Both the position numbers and the translations under genes were made by a program. Of a stretch of DNA of 42,584 nucleotides, positions 5,821 to 34,307 are shown one piece after another. Where the stretch lies: positions 1 through 42,584 of IMG/VR virus record IMGVR_UViG_2563366870_000004; one strand, given 5' to 3'. The number at the start of each line of letters is the position of its first letter. Position 1 is the first letter of the stretch. The notes beneath the pieces were generated by a model. That model was not told where the DNA came from. It saw only the letters and a list, made by a program, of their open reading frames with translations, and did no database searches. Source of the stretch: a virus (Duplodnaviria; Heunggongvirae; Uroviricota; Caudoviricetes).

Positions 5821-5843
5821 ATTACCTGAAAAACCACATATGG
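5821..5843. promoter_or_regulatory. Conserved box ATTACCTGAAAAACCACATATGG (half-site plus AAAACCACATATG)
   Basis: Near-identical box recurs at 27665-27687 and 34239-34261, each 50-63 bp from a full palindromic site. Confidence 0.4.
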
Positions 5844-5870
5844 ATAGAAAGACTGTGAATATGAATAGAT

Positions 5871-5887
5871 ATTACCTTTCAGGTAAT
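5871..5887. promoter_or_regulatory. Operator-like palindrome ATTACCT-TTC-AGGTAAT (perfect)
   Basis: Perfect 7-3-7 inverted repeat in the intergenic region upstream of the tailspike gene and just left of the IS insertion. Confidence 0.6.
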
Positions 5888-6036
5888 TTGCAAAACGTGC
5901 TGGATAGCAAACAAATTATTTGCTACTGTATAAACATGGGTCTTCCCCTGTTGTGGTGGGTGGTACATAATTGAGTGATTTTCAAACACCACACAGTACC
6001 TTTATGGTGTCTCTTTTTACATGAGAGGGAATTCTT

Positions 6037-6555
6037 ATGAGTGTGCCGCAAACAAAAGCTGAACTGCTTTTAGCTATTGATAAAAATTTTAGTAAATTAA
6101 TTAGTTACCTCAACACAATCCCACCAGAAATTACTTCAGATAAATCAATGGACGGACACGCCAAAGGAACGGAGATGAGTGTTCGTGATCTCGTTTCGTA
6201 TCTGCTTGGATGGAATGCTCTTGTTGTAAAGTGGATCGCTTCTGATGCTAAAGGTCTGCCTGTCGATTTTCCGGAAACTGGCTATAAATGGAATCAGCTT
6301 GGCCTTCTTGCTCAAAAATTTTACTCAGATTACAGTGAGTTAAGTTATGAGTTGTTAGTAGCTGAACTTCAGACTGTAAAAAATGAGATTGTGAACCTTA
6401 TTAATGATCGTACCGATGATATTTTGTATGGAAGACCATGGTACACAAAATGGACGATGGGGAGAATGATCTCATTTAACACATCTTCGCCTTACGCCAA
6501 CGCTAATGGAAGATTAAGAAAGTGGGCAAAAAATAATAATATCAGTTTAAAGTAA
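6037..6555 (+). CDS. ClbS/DfsB-like (DUF1706) protein, putative colibactin-type genotoxin resistance
   Basis: 172 aa; motifs GHAKGT, DLVSYLLGW, WYTKWTMGRMISFNTSSPYANANGRLRKW match my recollection of the ClbS family; GAGAGGG ribosome-binding site. Confidence 0.55.
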   Translation: MSVPQTKAELLLAIDKNFSKLISYLNTIPPEITSDKSMDGHAKGTEMSVRDLVSYLLGWNALVVKWIASDAKGLPVDFPETGYKWNQLGLLAQKFYSDYSELSYELLVAELQTVKNEIVNLINDRTDDILYGRPWYTKWTMGRMISFNTSSPYANANGRLRKWAKNNNISLK

Positions 6556-6573
6556 GCTTCAGAATGAAATTAT

Positions 6574-7794
6574 ATGGACGAAAAATCCCTCTATGCCCAT
6601 ATCCTTAACCTGACTGCACCATGGCAGGTTAAATCCCTTACCCTCGATGAAAATGCAGGTTCCGTTACTGTTACAGTCGGAATTGCTGAAAATACTCAGT
6701 TAACCTGTCCGACCTGCAGGAAATCCTGTTCTGTTCACGATCACCGACATCGTAAATGGCGCCACCTTGATACCTGCCAGTTCATGACATTAGTAGAAGC
6801 CGATGTTCCCCGCGTTATGTGCCCGGAGCATGGCTGCCAGACTCTGCCTGTACCGTGGGCAGGTTCCGGCAGTCGGTACACTCTGCTGTTCGAATCGTTC
6901 GTGCTCTCATGGCTTAAAATCAGCACCGTTGATGCGGTCAGAAAACAACTTAAACTTAGCTGGAATGCCGTTGACGGCATCATGACCCGCGCGGTTAAGC
7001 GAGGCCTGTCGCGGATTAAAAAGCCTTTATCAGTGCGTCATATGAATGTAGACGAAGTCGCCTTTAAAAAAGGGCATAGGTATATAACCGTGGTATCTGA
7101 TCGCGACGGGCGGGCACTGGCATTAACCGATGATCGTGGCACAGAGAGTCTTGCCAGCTATCTCCGTTCGCTTACTGACAGTCAGTTGTTGGCCATCAAA
7201 ACACTGTCGATGGACATGAATGCGGGCTATATAAGAGCAGCGCGTATCCATTTACCCAATGCGGTCGAGAAAATCGCCTTCGATCGCTTCCATGTGGCGA
7301 AGCAACTGGGCGAAGTGGTTGATAAAACCCGCCAGAATGAACATCCGCACCTCCCTGTTGAAAGTCGTCGTCAGGCCAAAGGTACCCGCTTCCTGTGGCA
7401 GTACAGCGACAAATGGATGACTGAGTCCCGGCAGGAAAAGCTGATGTGGTTGCGGGAACAGATGCAACAGACAAGCCAGTGCTGGACACTGAAAGAGCTG
7501 GCAAAAAATATCTGGGATCGCCCCTGGAGCACAGAACGCAGGAATGACTGGTTGCAGTGGATATCGCTGGCGTCTGAATGTGATGTGCCGATGATGAAAA
7601 ACGCAGCGAAAACCATTAAAAAACGGTTATACGGAATACTGAATGCAATGCGTCATCGCGTCTCGAATGGAAATGCGGAGGCGCTGAACAGCAAGATCAG
7701 ACTGCTGAGGATAAAGGCCAGGGGATACCGAAACCGGGAACGCTTTAAACTGGGAGTTATGTTCCACTATGGGAAACTGAATATGGCGTACTGA
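6574..7794 (+). CDS. ISL3-family transposase
   Basis: 406 aa; N-terminal zinc-finger CPTC...H.H...C..H region and overall ISL3 transposase similarity. Confidence 0.9.
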   Translation: MDEKSLYAHILNLTAPWQVKSLTLDENAGSVTVTVGIAENTQLTCPTCRKSCSVHDHRHRKWRHLDTCQFMTLVEADVPRVMCPEHGCQTLPVPWAGSGSRYTLLFESFVLSWLKISTVDAVRKQLKLSWNAVDGIMTRAVKRGLSRIKKPLSVRHMNVDEVAFKKGHRYITVVSDRDGRALALTDDRGTESLASYLRSLTDSQLLAIKTLSMDMNAGYIRAARIHLPNAVEKIAFDRFHVAKQLGEVVDKTRQNEHPHLPVESRRQAKGTRFLWQYSDKWMTESRQEKLMWLREQMQQTSQCWTLKELAKNIWDRPWSTERRNDWLQWISLASECDVPMMKNAAKTIKKRLYGILNAMRHRVSNGNAEALNSKIRLLRIKARGYRNRERFKLGVMFHYGKLNMAY

Positions 7795-7841
7795 GTCTTC
7801 CCACCATGATCGGGGAAGACCCATAAACATACAGTTATTGC

Positions 7842-8114
7842 ATGGAGAAGATTAAGATGCAGCAGTATCACTATCCACTGGAAGACGGATTTACCGAAAG
7901 GATTCACACGCCGGGAGGCGTCAGGTCACTGGTGGAGGGATCGCACTTGATGAAATTACTCCGGGATCTCGATAAGGATGGATTTAATGTCGATGGCCCA
8001 CTTGCCGAACTGACTGCACTGATTAACTACGTCACCAGCTCACAGATGTCTATGCAGGATCTGCAAACACATCTCGACTATTGTGCCGAACAATTACGAA
8101 AACAAACCCGGTAA
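7842..8114 (+). CDS. Small protein homologous to the C-terminal domain of the anti-repressor at 9256-9951
   Basis: LMKLLRDLDKDGFNVDGPLAELTALINYV...DLQTHLDYCAEQ aligns with LMNLLNQLQEDGHDVSGAAAELTTMFCYI...DIQTHAEYINDK. Confidence 0.5.
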   Translation: MEKIKMQQYHYPLEDGFTERIHTPGGVRSLVEGSHLMKLLRDLDKDGFNVDGPLAELTALINYVTSSQMSMQDLQTHLDYCAEQLRKQTR

Positions 8115-8121
8115 ATTTAAA

Positions 8122-32932: not shown

Positions 32933-32933
32933 A

Positions 32934-33296
32934 TCACTCTCCTTTGATGCGAATGCCAGCGACGCGTAGTGCGTGTTCTAAGTCAATCAGGCAAAGCCAA
33001 CTGCCATTTTCTTTAGGTATCATGACATGCCGCTTATTAGCATTTATTGGGTGCCCATATCGAAGGTCGTAGCGAGTCGGTAATTGAACTTCCCTCGCTT
33101 CCAGTTCTGTAATGCGTTTGTTTTTAGCTTCTAGTTCATCCAGCAGCGCCAGCACAACCTGCGGTGTGACTTTCATACGAAATGCCAGCAATTTTTGTGG
33201 TGTGGCTACTATTTTTATTGCTTCTGCCGCCTCACGCAGTGCCTGATAGTCAATCTTGCTCACTGGTTGCCTCCTTTGCGAAGCTGTTCCGCACAA
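32934..33296 (-). CDS. Hypothetical protein (start uncertain)
   Basis: Track ORF overlaps the upstream gene by 37 nt; true start probably an internal Met. Confidence 0.35.
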   Translation of the reverse strand: MCGTASQRRQPVSKIDYQALREAAEAIKIVATPQKLLAFRMKVTPQVVLALLDELEAKNKRITELEAREVQLPTRYDLRYGHPINANKRHVMIPKENGSWLCLIDLEHALRVAGIRIKGE

Positions 33297-33820
33297 TGCA
33301 GCAGGGCGTCCGTCGCATATTTAAGACTCACTAGCTCACCATCATCCATTCCCGCGAGATTCGCGTGTTTAACGAACGCCGAGCAAAGGTCATTAAACGC
33401 CTGCGCCCGTACTTCAGCCAGAAAAGCATCGGTGGCTGGGGTTTCCGGCAATGATCCGTCAACCAGTTCTATTGTTGTTCTGAATCGGGAATTCGACACA
33501 ACGCGATAAGTCAGGTTCGGCATTCTGGCTGCCACTTGCATCTCAAACTCCTCTCCAGATTCCAGCCCGGCTGCACGGGCGTAATCAAGCGGACTTCTGA
33601 CAGCCCCTGAATCTTCGCCGCCCCAGTAAATCAGGTTCGACTTCAACGCCTCATTCTCCGCCGCCATCGCATTAGCACGCACCAGTTGCACTTCCAGTTG
33701 CGTTGCCAAATCGCTGATCAGCTTTGCCACACTACGCATATCAACGGCACCACATTCTGCTTTCAGTTCCGAAGCCATCTCATGCCCGGCGGAAACTAAC
33801 CCTTTGATATTACTTTCCAT
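33260..33820 (-). CDS. Hypothetical protein
   Basis: 186 aa ORF in the leftward operon. Confidence 0.45.
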   Translation of the reverse strand: MESNIKGLVSAGHEMASELKAECGAVDMRSVAKLISDLATQLEVQLVRANAMAAENEALKSNLIYWGGEDSGAVRSPLDYARAAGLESGEEFEMQVAARMPNLTYRVVSNSRFRTTIELVDGSLPETPATDAFLAEVRAQAFNDLCSAFVKHANLAGMDDGELVSLKYATDALLHCAEQLRKGGNQ

Positions 33821-33881
33821 CTTTACCCTCGCTTATCCACATAACTTATTGATTACATTGATAACTAAAAAGATCGTCGAT

Positions 33882-34226
33882 TCAGAACTCTTCGATGTTC
33901 CAGCCACCACCTGCTTTCTTTGGTTTAACCGTTACCCCGATGATTCGGAACGGATACTGATCTGCGGCGACTTTGGTTTTCACCCTGGCGTCGTCGGTCC
34001 AGAAACCTTTCACTTCGTGCAGTTCAATCTCGCCGGTGGCGAGCATCACAGCAAAATCGGGCGTATAGAACGTGCTGTCAGCTAACCGCAGCTTGATACC
34101 CTCGAATCGATACCAGGCTATTTCCCCTGCACGTTTACGCAGCTCAAGGTGCTGGCAATACGCAGATTCTGTTTTGTTCATCTGGCCTGTTTTGAGTCGA
34201 CCAAGAGCCTGTATCTGTTTTCTCAT
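33882..34226 (-). CDS. PD-(D/E)xK-type nuclease-like protein (possible junction resolvase)
   Basis: 114 aa; YTPDF...IELHEVKG matches the D...E.K nuclease motif. Confidence 0.45.
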   Translation of the reverse strand: MRKQIQALGRLKTGQMNKTESAYCQHLELRKRAGEIAWYRFEGIKLRLADSTFYTPDFAVMLATGEIELHEVKGFWTDDARVKTKVAADQYPFRIIGVTVKPKKAGGGWNIEEF

Positions 34227-34238
34227 GATTTACCCCTG

Positions 34239-34261
34239 AGGTAATTAAAAACCACATAAGA
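34239..34261. promoter_or_regulatory. Conserved box AGGTAATTAAAAACCACATAAGA
   Basis: Third copy of the AAAACCACATA-type box, 55 bp from the palindrome at 34291. Confidence 0.4.
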
Positions 34262-34290
34262 CACGAAATCAATAGAATTTAGAATATTTT

Positions 34291-34307
34291 ATTACCTAGC
34301 AGGTAAT
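34291..34307. promoter_or_regulatory. Operator-like palindrome ATTACCT-AGC-AGGTAAT (perfect)
   Basis: Perfect 7-3-7 palindrome between the P-like gene and the nuclease-like gene; TAGAAT hexamer just upstream. Confidence 0.6.

What the first reader, a model, noticed from the sequence alone, without database searches (positions are those of the whole stretch)
5821..34307. Conserved two-part module: AAAACCACATATG box 50-63 bp from a palindromic site, at three loci
Boxes ATTACCTGAAAAACCACATATGG (5821), ATTACCAATTTAACCACATATGA (27665) and AGGTAATTAAAAACCACATAAGA (34239) each sit at a similar distance from a full palindrome (5871, 27727, 34291). A related AACAACCATATATGG lies upstream of the holin gene (about 3625-3638). 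This suggests a repeated promoter or recombination module, possibly marking boundaries at which accessory genes were exchanged, or a binding site for a second regulator.
Basis: seen in the sequence. Interest (0 to 1): 0.55.

Follow-up and report, generated by a model that had tools for sequence, protein, structure and literature searches.

The report
Repressor-controlled promoter modules of prophage
The repeated "box plus palindrome" is the shared promoter-and-operator layout that this epsilon15/phiV10-like prophage uses to keep its lytic operons silent; the palindrome is an already annotated repressor site, and the box belongs to a second, apparently unannotated 14-bp symmetric site found in most lytic promoters.

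Summary
The window is a phiV10/epsilon15-like (Uetakevirus) prophage. The palindrome ATTACC-N5-GGTAAT occurs 12 times with at most 1 mismatch (0.07 expected). The epsilon15 GenBank record already annotates the same 17-mers, at homologous positions, as repressor-binding sites. The prophage encodes homologues of the SPC32H Rep and Ant proteins (PDB 5D50).

The box (3 hits, 0.26 expected) is the conserved arm of a 14-bp dyad, consensus AACCATATATGGTT. It is conserved at those promoters in seven related phages.

All three modules face leftward lytic operons: tailspike, portal/structural genes, and the DUF1064-to-terminase operon. In module 3 and in the early-left promoter the layout is identical: operator at -62, -35, dyad filling the spacer, -10, operator at +1.

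In Rahnella, Buttiauxella and Pseudescherichia relatives a canonical operator fills the dyad slot. In Providencia relatives, which differ in Rep and Cro recognition helices, both motifs differ but the geometry is kept.

The modules are most likely repressor-controlled promoters with a second operator-like site. Which protein binds that site is unresolved: Rep or the Cro-like protein. A recombination role has no specific support.

The parts
5871..5887 (.). Module 1 distal Rep operator ATTACCTTTCAGGTAAT, between the tailspike gene (3659-5767, minus strand) and the divergent ant promoter region
   Evidence: The homologous 17-mer in epsilon15 (19895-19911) is annotated protein_bind 'repressor'.
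5832..5845 (.).
   Evidence: CATAT-NN-GGTT-N5-GGTAATA is conserved in 7 genomes.
5816..5844 (-). Inferred tailspike promoter. The -35 is TCCATA (5844..5839), the spacer is 17 nt and contains GTGGTT-N5-GGTAA with the operator half-site 5821-5826, and the -10 is TAGAAT (5821..5816).
   Evidence: Sequence. TAGAAT/TACAAT and TTCATA-like hexamers are conserved at the same spacing in relatives. Inferred; no transcription start site data.
27727..27743 (.). Module 2 distal Rep operator ATTACCTTTCAGGTAAC
   Evidence: Epsilon15 2931-2947 is annotated 'repressor'. Conserved in 12 of 13 divergent prophages.
27676..27689 (.). Module 2 dyad AACCACATATGATT (minus strand AATCATATGTGGTT); this is the core of box 2
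   Evidence: TATRTGGTTAAATTGGTAATAATTTAAT is nearly invariant across Enterobacterales relatives.
27660..27688 (-). Inferred promoter of the gp3-portal-structural operon. The -35 is ATCATA (27688..27683), the spacer contains GTGGTT-N5-GGTAA with half-site 27665-27670, and the -10 is TAATTT (27665..27660) or AATAAT (27667..27662).
   Evidence: Inferred; the -35 is weak.
27706..27734 (+). Divergent promoter TTGACA (27706-27711), 17-nt spacer, TACCTT (27729-27734). Its -10 lies inside the distal operator and it points toward tRNA-Arg at 28065-28141.
   Evidence: TTGAC lies exactly 15 nt from the operator in all TTACC-type relatives, although the sequence in between is not conserved. tRNA.
34291..34307 (.). 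Module 3 distal Rep operator ATTACCTAGCAGGTAAT, centred about -62
   Evidence: Epsilon15 35906-35922 is annotated 'repressor'. Arms are invariant and the central N5 is hypervariable in 63 unique close relatives.
34229..34245 (.). Module 3 proximal Rep operator TTTACCCCTGAGGTAAT, centred about +1.
   Evidence: It lies 62 bp centre-to-centre from the distal operator; this is conserved at 61-62 bp in five other genera.
34243..34271 (-). Module 3 promoter: -35 TTGATT (34271..34266), 17-nt spacer, -10 TTTAAT (34248..34243). The dyad/box TGTCTTATGTGGTT (34263..34250) fills the last 14 nt of the spacer.
   Evidence: TTGAWW-17-TTWAAT is conserved across genera.
3616..3643 (-). Lysis-operon promoter: TTAACC, 16-nt spacer, TATAAT, with the perfect dyad AACCATATATGGTT (3628-3641) over the -35 and spacer
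   Evidence: In relatives the layout is operator, 28 nt, dyad, 7 nt, TATAAT or TATGAT.
37310..37388 (+). Early-left (PL-like) promoter with the same layout as module 3. Operator at 37310-37326, -35 TTGACA at 37345-37350, dyad AACCAAATACGCAT at 37354-37367, -10 AATTAT at 37368-37373, operator at 37372-37388.
   Evidence: Tyrion and BUCT554 carry AACCATATATGGAT and AACCACATAAGGAT in the same slot.
36195..36229 (-). Degenerate operator (36229..36213), 4 nt, then dyad AACCAAATCTGGTT (36208..36195). It lies after the cro-like terminator and overlaps a TTGATC-17-CAAAAT promoter for the replication genes.
   Evidence: conserved in all relatives examined.
8885..8994 (+). Promoter of the antirepressor (Bro-N) operon. 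Operator at 8885-8901, dyad AACCAAATACGGTT at 8938-8951 overlapping the -35 TTGATT (8950-8955), -10 TATCAT at 8974-8979, operator at 8978-8994.
10016..10032 (.). Solitary Rep operator upstream of ORF 10035-10259. A TAATAT hexamer ends in the operator's first two bases.
30921..30955 (.). Two adjacent operators 18 bp apart, between a terminator and the small-terminase start
   Evidence: Epsilon15 12-27 is annotated 'repressor'.
36551..36614 (.). rep-cro switch region. One good operator at 36598-36614 and two weaker ones at 36581-36597 and 36551-36567. No dyad is present.
36669..37253 (+). rep, the repressor gene
   Evidence: Matches PDB 5D50_A (SPC32H repressor), E = 3.5e-42. Pfam HTH_3 and a weak N-terminal YdaS-like HTH.
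36284..36514 (-). Cro-position HTH protein (p41 homologue), a candidate binder of the dyad
   Evidence: phrog_35 'transcriptional repressor'. The HTH segment is invariant in 5 phages.
7842..8114 (+). ant, the small antirepressor gene
   Evidence: Matches PDB 5D50_E, E = 4.4e-47.

Best explanation
Each "module" is the control region of a leftward lytic operon of an epsilon15/phiV10-like temperate phage. The operons are tailspike (module 1), gp3-portal-structural genes (module 2) and DUF1064-to-terminase (module 3).

The palindrome ATTACC-N5-GGTAAT is the operator of the phage repressor Rep. Rep is a tetrameric, SPC32H-type, antirepressor-controlled protein.

The box sits inside the core promoter. 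It consists of (i) an operator half-site or full operator next to the -10/+1 position and (ii) the conserved arm of a second 14-bp dyad, consensus AACCATATATGGTT.

In the lysogen, Rep tetramers are proposed to bridge the strong upstream operator and the promoter-proximal site(s), 62 bp apart in PL, module 3 and module 2. Bridging would loop the DNA and occlude RNA polymerase, so every lytic transcription unit is silenced directly rather than through a cascade.

The dyad is proposed to act as a second, operator-like repressive site. It would be bound either by the second pair of Rep DNA-binding domains or by the Cro-position HTH protein.

What is shown: the existence of the motifs, their enrichment, their conservation, their geometry and their change with immunity type. 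What is inferred: the promoter assignments for modules 1 and 2, DNA looping, and the identity of the dyad binder.
For: Identity of the phage.

The palindrome as operator:
- 12 hits against 0.07 expected.
- The same 17-mers are annotated as repressor binding sites at homologous positions in epsilon15 AY150271.2.
- Rep and Ant match PDB 5D50 chains A and E.
- SPC32H Rep has an N-terminal DNA-binding domain plus a tetramerisation domain of the type that loops DNA in pLS20 Rco (PMC9986798).

The box/dyad as a real motif:
- 3 hits against 0.26 expected.
- AACCA[ACT]AT has 9 copies, 8 of them intergenic, against 0.57 expected; 0 of 5000 simulations reach 8.
- After the operator, it is the next most enriched family of intergenic k-mers across 5 genomes.
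- It is present at the same promoters in phiV10, epsilon15, SPC32H, Tyrion, 65FD, BUCT554 and BUCT711.

Fixed spacing despite diverged spacers:
- 28, 40 and 30 nt between palindrome and box in both the window and epsilon15.
- Operator pairs are 61-62 bp apart in five genera.

Shared layout: PL and module 3 have the same arrangement base for base: operator, 18 nt, -35, 3 nt, 14-nt dyad, -10 ending in the AT of the next operator.

Positional equivalence: in Rahnella, Buttiauxella and Pseudescherichia a canonical operator occupies the slot held by the dyad.

Change with immunity type: Providencia-group relatives have different Rep and Cro recognition helices. They carry a different operator (TTAACC-N5-GGTTAA) and a different second motif (AAACA-N3-TGTTT) in the same spacer slot.

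Position relative to the promoter: the dyad centre lies at about -19.5, -26.5, -29.5 or -40.5/-41.5 in different promoters. It always overlaps the core promoter but keeps no fixed position or helical phase. That fits a repressor better than an activator.
Against: No transcription start or protein-binding data exist for this window.

The -35 hexamers inferred for modules 1 and 2 are weak (TCCATA, ATCATA). These could therefore be activator-dependent late promoters rather than simply repressed ones.

The dyad half-site (WAACCA) differs from the operator half-site (TTACCT), and the arm spacing differs by 1 bp. A distinct conserved motif suggests a distinct binder rather than Rep.

The dyad is absent from the rep-cro switch region, where both Rep and a classical Cro should act.

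In modules 1-3 only one arm of the dyad (TGGTT) is strongly conserved.

The change of both motifs with immunity type rests on only two immunity groups.

The distal palindromes of modules 1 and 2 also serve divergent promoters (ant, and a tRNA-Arg promoter). Their pairing with the box may therefore be partly incidental.

The original epsilon15 and SPC32H papers could not be read, so I cannot exclude that the dyad was described there.
Confidence: 0.7

Rival explanations
1. The dyad/box is the binding site of a phage-encoded late-gene activator, for example the Cro-position HTH protein, the PerC-like protein or the phrog_536 regulator encoded just upstream of terS. The activator would substitute for the missing -35 at the tailspike, structural and lysis promoters. 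The upstream Rep palindrome would be a separate safety lock or would serve the divergent promoter.
For: Modules 1 and 2, and the lysis promoter in most relatives, lack a good -35, and the dyad covers exactly that region. In two promoters (8938 and 36195) the dyad is centred near -41, a classic class II activator position. Candidate regulators are present: PerC-like 40197-40496, phrog_536 at 31227-31568, and the Cro-like gene. From memory, P1 late promoters carry an inverted repeat near -22 that is recognised by the activator Lpa.
Against: The same dyad fills the spacer, abutting the -10, of two near-consensus promoters, PL and module 3. A bound protein there should block RNA polymerase. The dyad's position relative to the -10 varies (0, 7, 10 and about 21 nt) without helical phasing. 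In other genera the slot holds a canonical repressor operator. In the window the lysis promoter scores 10 of 12 against consensus and should not need an activator.
Confidence: 0.2
2. The box has no dedicated binder. It is promoter sequence (part of the -35, the spacer or an extended -10) inherited by duplication of one ancestral promoter-operator cassette. Its similarity among loci reflects common descent plus RNA polymerase constraints.
For: PL and module 3 are clearly paralogous in layout. In module 2 the invariant TGGTTAAAT could be read as TGn plus a -10-like hexamer. Within close relatives the box is no more conserved than the neighbouring promoter bases.
Against: The sequences between operator and box are unrelated among modules, so similarity is confined to the functional blocks. 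The motif is dyad-symmetric and perfect at 3628. It sits at different distances from the -10 in different promoters. In Providencia relatives it is replaced by a different symmetric motif in the same slot.
Confidence: 0.1
3. The modules are recombination or boundary sequences at which gene cassettes are exchanged between phages; this was the first reader's alternative.
For: Homology to relatives ends exactly at a site edge at four places: 3643, 8989, 27742 and 30965.
Against: End-points are no more frequent at these sites than elsewhere between genes (25% of intergenic end-points against about 27% of intergenic space). Homology runs straight through module 1 and module 3 in several comparisons. 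No recombinase is associated with these sites.
Confidence: 0.05

Closest known systems
Repressor-binding sites annotated in Salmonella phage epsilon15 (GenBank AY150271.2; Kropinski et al. 2007)
   Same: The same 17-bp palindrome ATTACC-N5-GGTAAT occurs at homologous positions: upstream of gp3, tailspike, RuvC/DUF1064, terS and the early-left operon.
   Different: The record annotates only the palindromes, plus IHF, RNase III and integrase sites. Nothing is annotated at the AACCA-N4-TGGTT dyads or at the promoter-proximal half-sites. The paper itself could not be read.
Rep-Ant lysis-lysogeny switch of Salmonella phage SPC32H (PDB 5D4Z/5D50; Kim & Ryu 2013, Kim et al. 2016)
   Same: Rep and Ant are clear homologues (E = 3.5e-42 and 4.4e-47). 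Gene order is the same. ant is divergent from the tailspike gene and has an SOS box. Rep is a tetramer with an N-terminal DNA-binding domain (PMC9986798; PMC9638917).
   Different: Published work, as far as I could read it second-hand, concerns Rep structure and Ant action, not the promoter architecture of all lytic operons. PMC9986798 states that the repression mechanism is not extensively characterised. In this window the ant SOS box is split by an ISL3 insertion.
Phage P1 C1 repressor with operators scattered over the genome, and the immI region (C4 RNA controlling ant)
   Same: One repressor directly controls many dispersed transcription units. A repressor-controlled promoter drives a C4 antisense RNA followed by an antirepressor gene (Rfam C4 at 9131-9216).
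   Different: The P1 operator is an asymmetric 17-mer and C1 is unrelated to Rep. P1 late genes use the activator Lpa. Resemblance of strategy is drawn from memory; membership was not tested beyond the C4 RNA hit.
Looping repressors with paired operators (lambda CI at OL/OR; pLS20 Rco with its TetDloop domain)
   Same: Paired operators at a fixed distance (62 bp here) and a tetrameric repressor whose tetramerisation domain resembles that of Rco (PMC9986798).
   Different: Looping is not demonstrated for Rep. The loop would be very short (about six helical turns), and one partner site is only a half-operator plus a different dyad in modules 1 and 2.

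Membership tests
Uetakevirus (epsilon15-type) Rep operator | 17-bp palindrome ATTACC-N5-GGTAAT with conserved arms and a free centre | tested here: met
   12 sites with at most 1 mismatch against 0.07 expected. Arms are invariant and the N5 is hypervariable in 56-63 unique relatives.
Uetakevirus (epsilon15-type) Rep operator | Located at the positions annotated as repressor sites in epsilon15 | tested here: met
   The gp3, tailspike, RuvC/DUF1064, terS and PL sites all correspond.
Uetakevirus (epsilon15-type) Rep operator | A cognate Rep protein is encoded in the same element | tested here: met
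   36669-37253 matches PDB 5D50_A, E = 3.5e-42. The N-terminal recognition region NLVNRW is invariant across 5 phages.
Uetakevirus (epsilon15-type) Rep operator | Physical binding of Rep to the site | not testable with these tools
   Needs EMSA, footprinting or ChIP.
Sigma-70 promoter | -35 and -10 hexamers at 16-18 bp spacing, conserved in relatives | tested here: met
   Met for module 3 (TTGATT-17-TTTAAT), PL (TTGACA-17-AATTAT), the 8978 promoter and the lysis promoter.
Sigma-70 promoter | The same test applied to modules 1 and 2 | tested here: inconclusive
   The -10 hexamers (TAGAAT; TAATTT or AATAAT) are conserved, but the -35 hexamers are weak (TCCATA, ATCATA). Neither was reported by the consensus scan.
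Sigma-70 promoter | Mapped transcription start | not testable with these tools
   No transcript data are available.
Second operator class (dyad AACCA-N4-TGGTT) bound by an immunity-region protein | Dyad symmetry, enrichment in promoter regions and conservation across the genus | tested here: met
Second operator class (dyad AACCA-N4-TGGTT) bound by an immunity-region protein | The motif changes when the immunity proteins change | tested here: inconclusive
   It holds for the single heteroimmune group found (Providencia). That is only two groups, and Rep and Cro change together, so the binder cannot be assigned.
Mosaic boundary or recombination sequence | Homology breakpoints concentrated at the element | tested here: not met
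   17 of 69 intergenic end-points lie at sites that occupy about 27% of intergenic space.
P1-type late promoter (activator Lpa, inverted repeat near -22) | Fixed position of the repeat relative to the -10, and an Lpa-like activator gene | tested here: not met
   The dyad position varies from about -19.5 to -41.5. No Lpa homologue was specifically searched for; the candidate regulators listed are only PerC-like, AlpA-like and phrog_536.

The most novel reading that the evidence does not exclude
Uetakeviruses use two distinct immunity-specific DNA motifs. One is the known 17-bp Rep operator. The other is an unannotated 14-bp dyad (AACCATATATGGTT) embedded in the core of every lytic promoter except the rep-cro switch. 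The dyad would be read either by the second pair of DNA-binding domains of the Rep tetramer, as a composite operator, or by the Cro-position protein acting as a genome-wide second regulator. Either reading would explain how one antirepressor-sensitive repressor silences late, lysis, replication, tRNA and antirepressor operons directly.
Probability: 0.45. Interest if true: 0.5.

Novelty: new member of a known kind. Interest (0 to 1): 0.38.

Why it matters
It shows that this prophage family does not rely only on a lambda-like cascade. The repressor appears to sit on nearly every lytic promoter, including those for the structural, tailspike and lysis genes.

It also points to a second conserved site that existing annotation misses. 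That gives a concrete, testable map for the SPC32H/epsilon15 Rep-Ant switch, whose repression mechanism is described as poorly characterised: which sites, which spacing, and which mutations to make.

The map would also help in predicting inducibility and immunity groups of phiV10-like prophages in E. coli and Salmonella.

Tried and rejected
- Reading the primary papers. Epsilon15 (PMC2698709), SPC32H J Virol (PMC3807360) and PNAS (PMC4983836 and its DOI) are not held. Literature searches for the motif strings gave nothing relevant.
- IHF, CRP, DnaA, LexA, sigma-54 and extended -10 readings of the box were checked by eye against consensus sequences recalled from memory and rejected for lack of match or inconsistent register. 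The IHF sites annotated in epsilon15 do not overlap the dyads.
- A promoter overlapping the distal operator of module 3 (TTAATA-16-TAAAAT from the scan). Rejected because those hexamers vary at key positions among close relatives.
- The Rep middle HTH_3 domain as the dyad reader. Disfavoured because Klebsiella and Providencia share the helix QATVNR but have different second motifs. That domain is also described as a dimerisation domain.
- Assigning the dyad to the Cro-like protein. Its HTH is invariant wherever the dyad is the same, and differs in Providencia. However, the homologous Cro of Psychrobacter phage pOW20-A sits next to TACC-type operators only, and no dyad lies in the rep-cro switch. 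Unresolved.
- Searching for further heteroimmune relatives. Only the Providencia group turned up.
- A recombination-boundary role.
- The pattern scan of viral contigs for operator-N4-dyad returned mostly contigs of about 40 kb, several of which are contigs already retrieved with this phage family's gp3 or DUF1064 queries; the loci were not examined individually.

Full report
**What the window is.** Megablast against phage records shows a mosaic but clear relative of Escherichia phages phiV10, TL-2011b, phiv142-3 and ZX5, and, at about 80% identity, of Salmonella phage epsilon15 and Enterobacter phage Tyrion. All belong to the genus Uetakevirus. The window is reversed relative to those records, so the late genes run leftward on the minus strand.

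**Checking the observation.** The AACAACCATATATGG upstream of the lysis genes is also there. Neither element is a chance feature. AAACCACATATG with at most 1 mismatch gives 3 hits against 0.26 expected. ATTACC-N5-GGTAAT with at most 1 mismatch gives 12 hits against 0.07 expected.

The description is incomplete in three ways. The palindrome occurs at many more intergenic sites: 8885, 8978, 10016, 30921/30939, 34229, 36598, 37310 and 37372. The AGGTAAT of box 3 is an arm of another full operator at 34229-34245. The box is one arm of a 14-bp dyad, as described below.

**The palindrome is already known.** The epsilon15 GenBank record carries seven protein_bind features labelled "repressor / lysogeny". 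Their sequences are ATTACC-N5-GGTAAT. They lie upstream of gp3, tailspike, RuvC, terS and the early-left operon, which are the homologues of the window sites.

The window encodes the matching proteins. ORF 36669-37253 matches the SPC32H repressor, PDB 5D50 chain A, at E = 3.5e-42. ORF 7842-8114 matches its antirepressor, chain E, at E = 4.4e-47. According to PMC9986798 and PMC9638917, SPC32H Rep has an N-terminal DNA-binding domain, a middle dimerisation domain and a C-terminal tetramerisation domain. It binds palindromic sites as a tetramer. The tetramerisation fold is the one that mediates DNA looping in pLS20 Rco. The repression mechanism itself is described as not extensively characterised.

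**What the modules control.** On the minus strand each module precedes a lytic operon:
- Module 1 precedes the tailspike gene (3659-5767).
- Module 2 precedes the 68-aa gp3 homologue, the portal gene and the long structural operon (27637 down to about 11417).
- Module 3 precedes DUF1064 through to the terminase genes. It lies directly after the intrinsic terminator that ends the replication operon.

**Module 3 is the clearest case.** Read on the minus strand it is: ATTACCTGCTAGGTAAT, 18 nt, TTGATT, TCG, TGTCTTATGTGGTT, TTTA[AT-TACCTCAGGGGTAAA], CATG. This is a TTGATT-17-TTTAAT promoter. One operator is centred near +1 and another 62 bp upstream.

The early-left promoter has the same layout base for base: ATTACCTTACGGGTAAT, 18 nt, TTGACA, ACA, AACCAAATACGCAT, AATT[AT-TACCTCAACGGTAAC]. 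The rule that the -10 hexamer ends in the first two bases of the operator also holds for the promoters at 8950-8979 and near 10016.

**Conservation of module 3.** Among 63 unique module 3 sequences from close relatives, the operator arms, the -35, the spacer and the -10 are nearly invariant. The operator centres and the outer flanks are hypervariable. In five other genera TTGAWW-17-TTWAAT and the 61-62 bp operator spacing are kept.

**The box is part of a second motif.** Taken together, the box-like sequences fit a dyad AACCA-N4-TGGTT. The sites are:
- 3628: perfect, AACCATATATGGTT
- 5832 (module 1)
- 8938
- 27676 (module 2)
- 34250 (module 3): one arm only
- 36195
- 37354 (early-left promoter): one arm only

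AACCA[ACT]AT occurs 9 times in the window, and 8 of those lie in about 2.9 kb of intergenic DNA, against 0.57 expected; 0 of 5000 Markov simulations reach 8. In an intergenic k-mer enrichment across five genomes, the box k-mers (CATATGTG, ATATGTGG, CCATATAT) rank among the most enriched after the operator k-mers.

The dyad is present at the same promoters in phiV10, epsilon15, SPC32H, Tyrion, 65FD, BUCT554 and BUCT711. It is often closer to consensus there than in the window. Examples are AACCATATATGGAT in the Tyrion early-left spacer and ATCCATATATGGTT at most lysis promoters. Nothing is annotated at these positions in epsilon15.

**Modules 1 and 2.** The conserved block is CATAT-NN-GGTT-N5-GGTAAT followed by TAGAAT (module 1) or AATTTAAT (module 2). 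The best reading is a weak -35 (TTCATA-like, lying inside the dyad), a 17-nt spacer made of GTGGTT-N5-GGTAA, and a -10 beginning at the last T of the half-site. This is inference, and the consensus scan did not report these promoters.

The spacing between palindrome and box is identical in the window and epsilon15 (28, 40 and 30 nt), even though the intervening sequence has diverged strongly. In module 2 the 17-mer GTGGTT-N5-GGTAAT lies exactly 62 bp from the distal operator. That is the same distance as the true operator pairs.

**The distal palindromes also serve divergent promoters.** In module 2 a perfect TTGACA on the opposite strand lies exactly 15 nt from the operator in every TTACC-type relative, with no conservation in between. 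This places a TACCTT -10 inside the operator. The promoter points at a tRNA-Arg(UCU) gene at 28065-28141. In module 1 the palindrome lies next to the ant promoter region.

**What the dyad does.** Three observations favour an operator-like, repressive site read by a protein of the immunity region.
- It always overlaps the core promoter, but at different positions: centre about -19.5 in PL and module 3, -26.5 at the lysis promoter, about -29.5 in modules 1 and 2, and about -40.5/-41.5 at 36195 and 8938. An activator would need a fixed position.
- At the homologous module 3 promoter of Rahnella, Buttiauxella and Pseudescherichia, a canonical Rep operator occupies the slot held by the dyad. This gives two operators 18 bp apart. 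That is similar to the 19.5 bp between dyad and operator in the window.
- Providencia-group relatives have different Rep and Cro recognition helices. Their operator becomes TTAACC-N5-GGTTAA. A different symmetric motif, AAACA-N3-TGTTT, sits in the same spacer slot abutting the -10.

**Who binds the dyad is unresolved.** For Rep: the positional equivalence just described, the need to silence a near-consensus lysis promoter that has no canonical operator over it, and related half-sites (TTACCT against TAACCA). For the Cro-position protein: its HTH is invariant wherever the dyad is the same. Against Cro: the dyad is absent from the rep-cro switch, and a homologous Cro in Psychrobacter phage pOW20-A sits among TACC-type operators only.

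**The recombination idea.** Homology to six relatives ends at a site edge at four places. Overall, however, end-points are not enriched at operators or dyads relative to other intergenic DNA.

**Verdict.** The finding is a real, conserved regulatory architecture. Its major component, the palindrome, is an already annotated repressor operator. Its minor component, the box, belongs to a second conserved dyad that I could not find annotated; this may be a new regulatory element of this phage genus. Interest is moderate: useful to people working on the Rep-Ant switch, but not surprising in kind.

Noticed in passing
window 5933-7828 (junctions at 5925-5943 and 7818-7836): A 1.9-kb ISL3-family element is inserted exactly inside the LexA (SOS) box of the ant promoter. 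It has an 8-bp target duplication ATAAACAT and 11-bp terminal inverted repeats GGGTCTTCCCC/GGGGAAGACCC. It carries a transposase (6574-7794; Pfam DDE_Tnp_ISL3, E = 1e-58) and a DUF1706 (ClbS-like, from memory) passenger gene at 6037-6555. The insertion splits CTGT-N8-ACAG and separates ant (7842-8114) from its -35, so SOS induction of this prophage may be altered.
   Followed up: partly
window 9030-9216 (+): Rfam finds an isrK-like RNA at 9030-9106 and a C4 antisense RNA at 9131-9216. They lie between the Rep-controlled promoter at 8950-8979 and a Bro-N antirepressor-like gene at 9256-9951. This is a P1 immI-like arrangement, and a second antirepressor system besides the small Ant.
   Followed up: partly
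window 27706-28141 (+): A tRNA-Arg(UCU) gene lies at 28065-28141. It is downstream of a conserved divergent promoter, TTGACA-17-TACCTT, whose -10 sits inside the module 2 operator. The roughly 320-nt stretch in between contains blocks conserved across genera. Epsilon15 annotates an RNase III site in the corresponding region, and SPC32H carries the tRNA there.
   Followed up: partly
loci L003-L162 (upstream of gp3 and DUF1064 homologues): In phages whose flanking protein is 96-100% identical, the central 5 bp of the operators and the bases just outside them are hypervariable. There are 56 and 63 distinct sequences among 80 loci each, while the arms and promoter elements stay fixed. I did not compare this with the synonymous-site rate.
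   Followed up: no
window 30921-30955: Two adjacent operators 18 bp apart sit between an intrinsic terminator and the small-terminase start codon, with no obvious promoter. They may act as a roadblock to read-through. The arrangement is conserved in all TTACC-type relatives.
   Followed up: no
window 5898-5909 (TGCTGGATAGCA): A block reading ACTATCCAGCA in late-gene orientation lies about 8-10 nt outside the module 1 distal operator. It is conserved in all seven genomes compared, although its flanks differ. Function unknown.
   Followed up: no
loci L173 and L303-L312 (Providencia-group prophages): These relatives carry a different motif pair: TTAACC-N5-GGTTAA, and AAACA-N3-TGTTT with TTGTTTAT half-site repeats next to rep. 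The motifs sit in equivalent promoter positions, so this is a second immunity type of the same architecture.
   Followed up: partly
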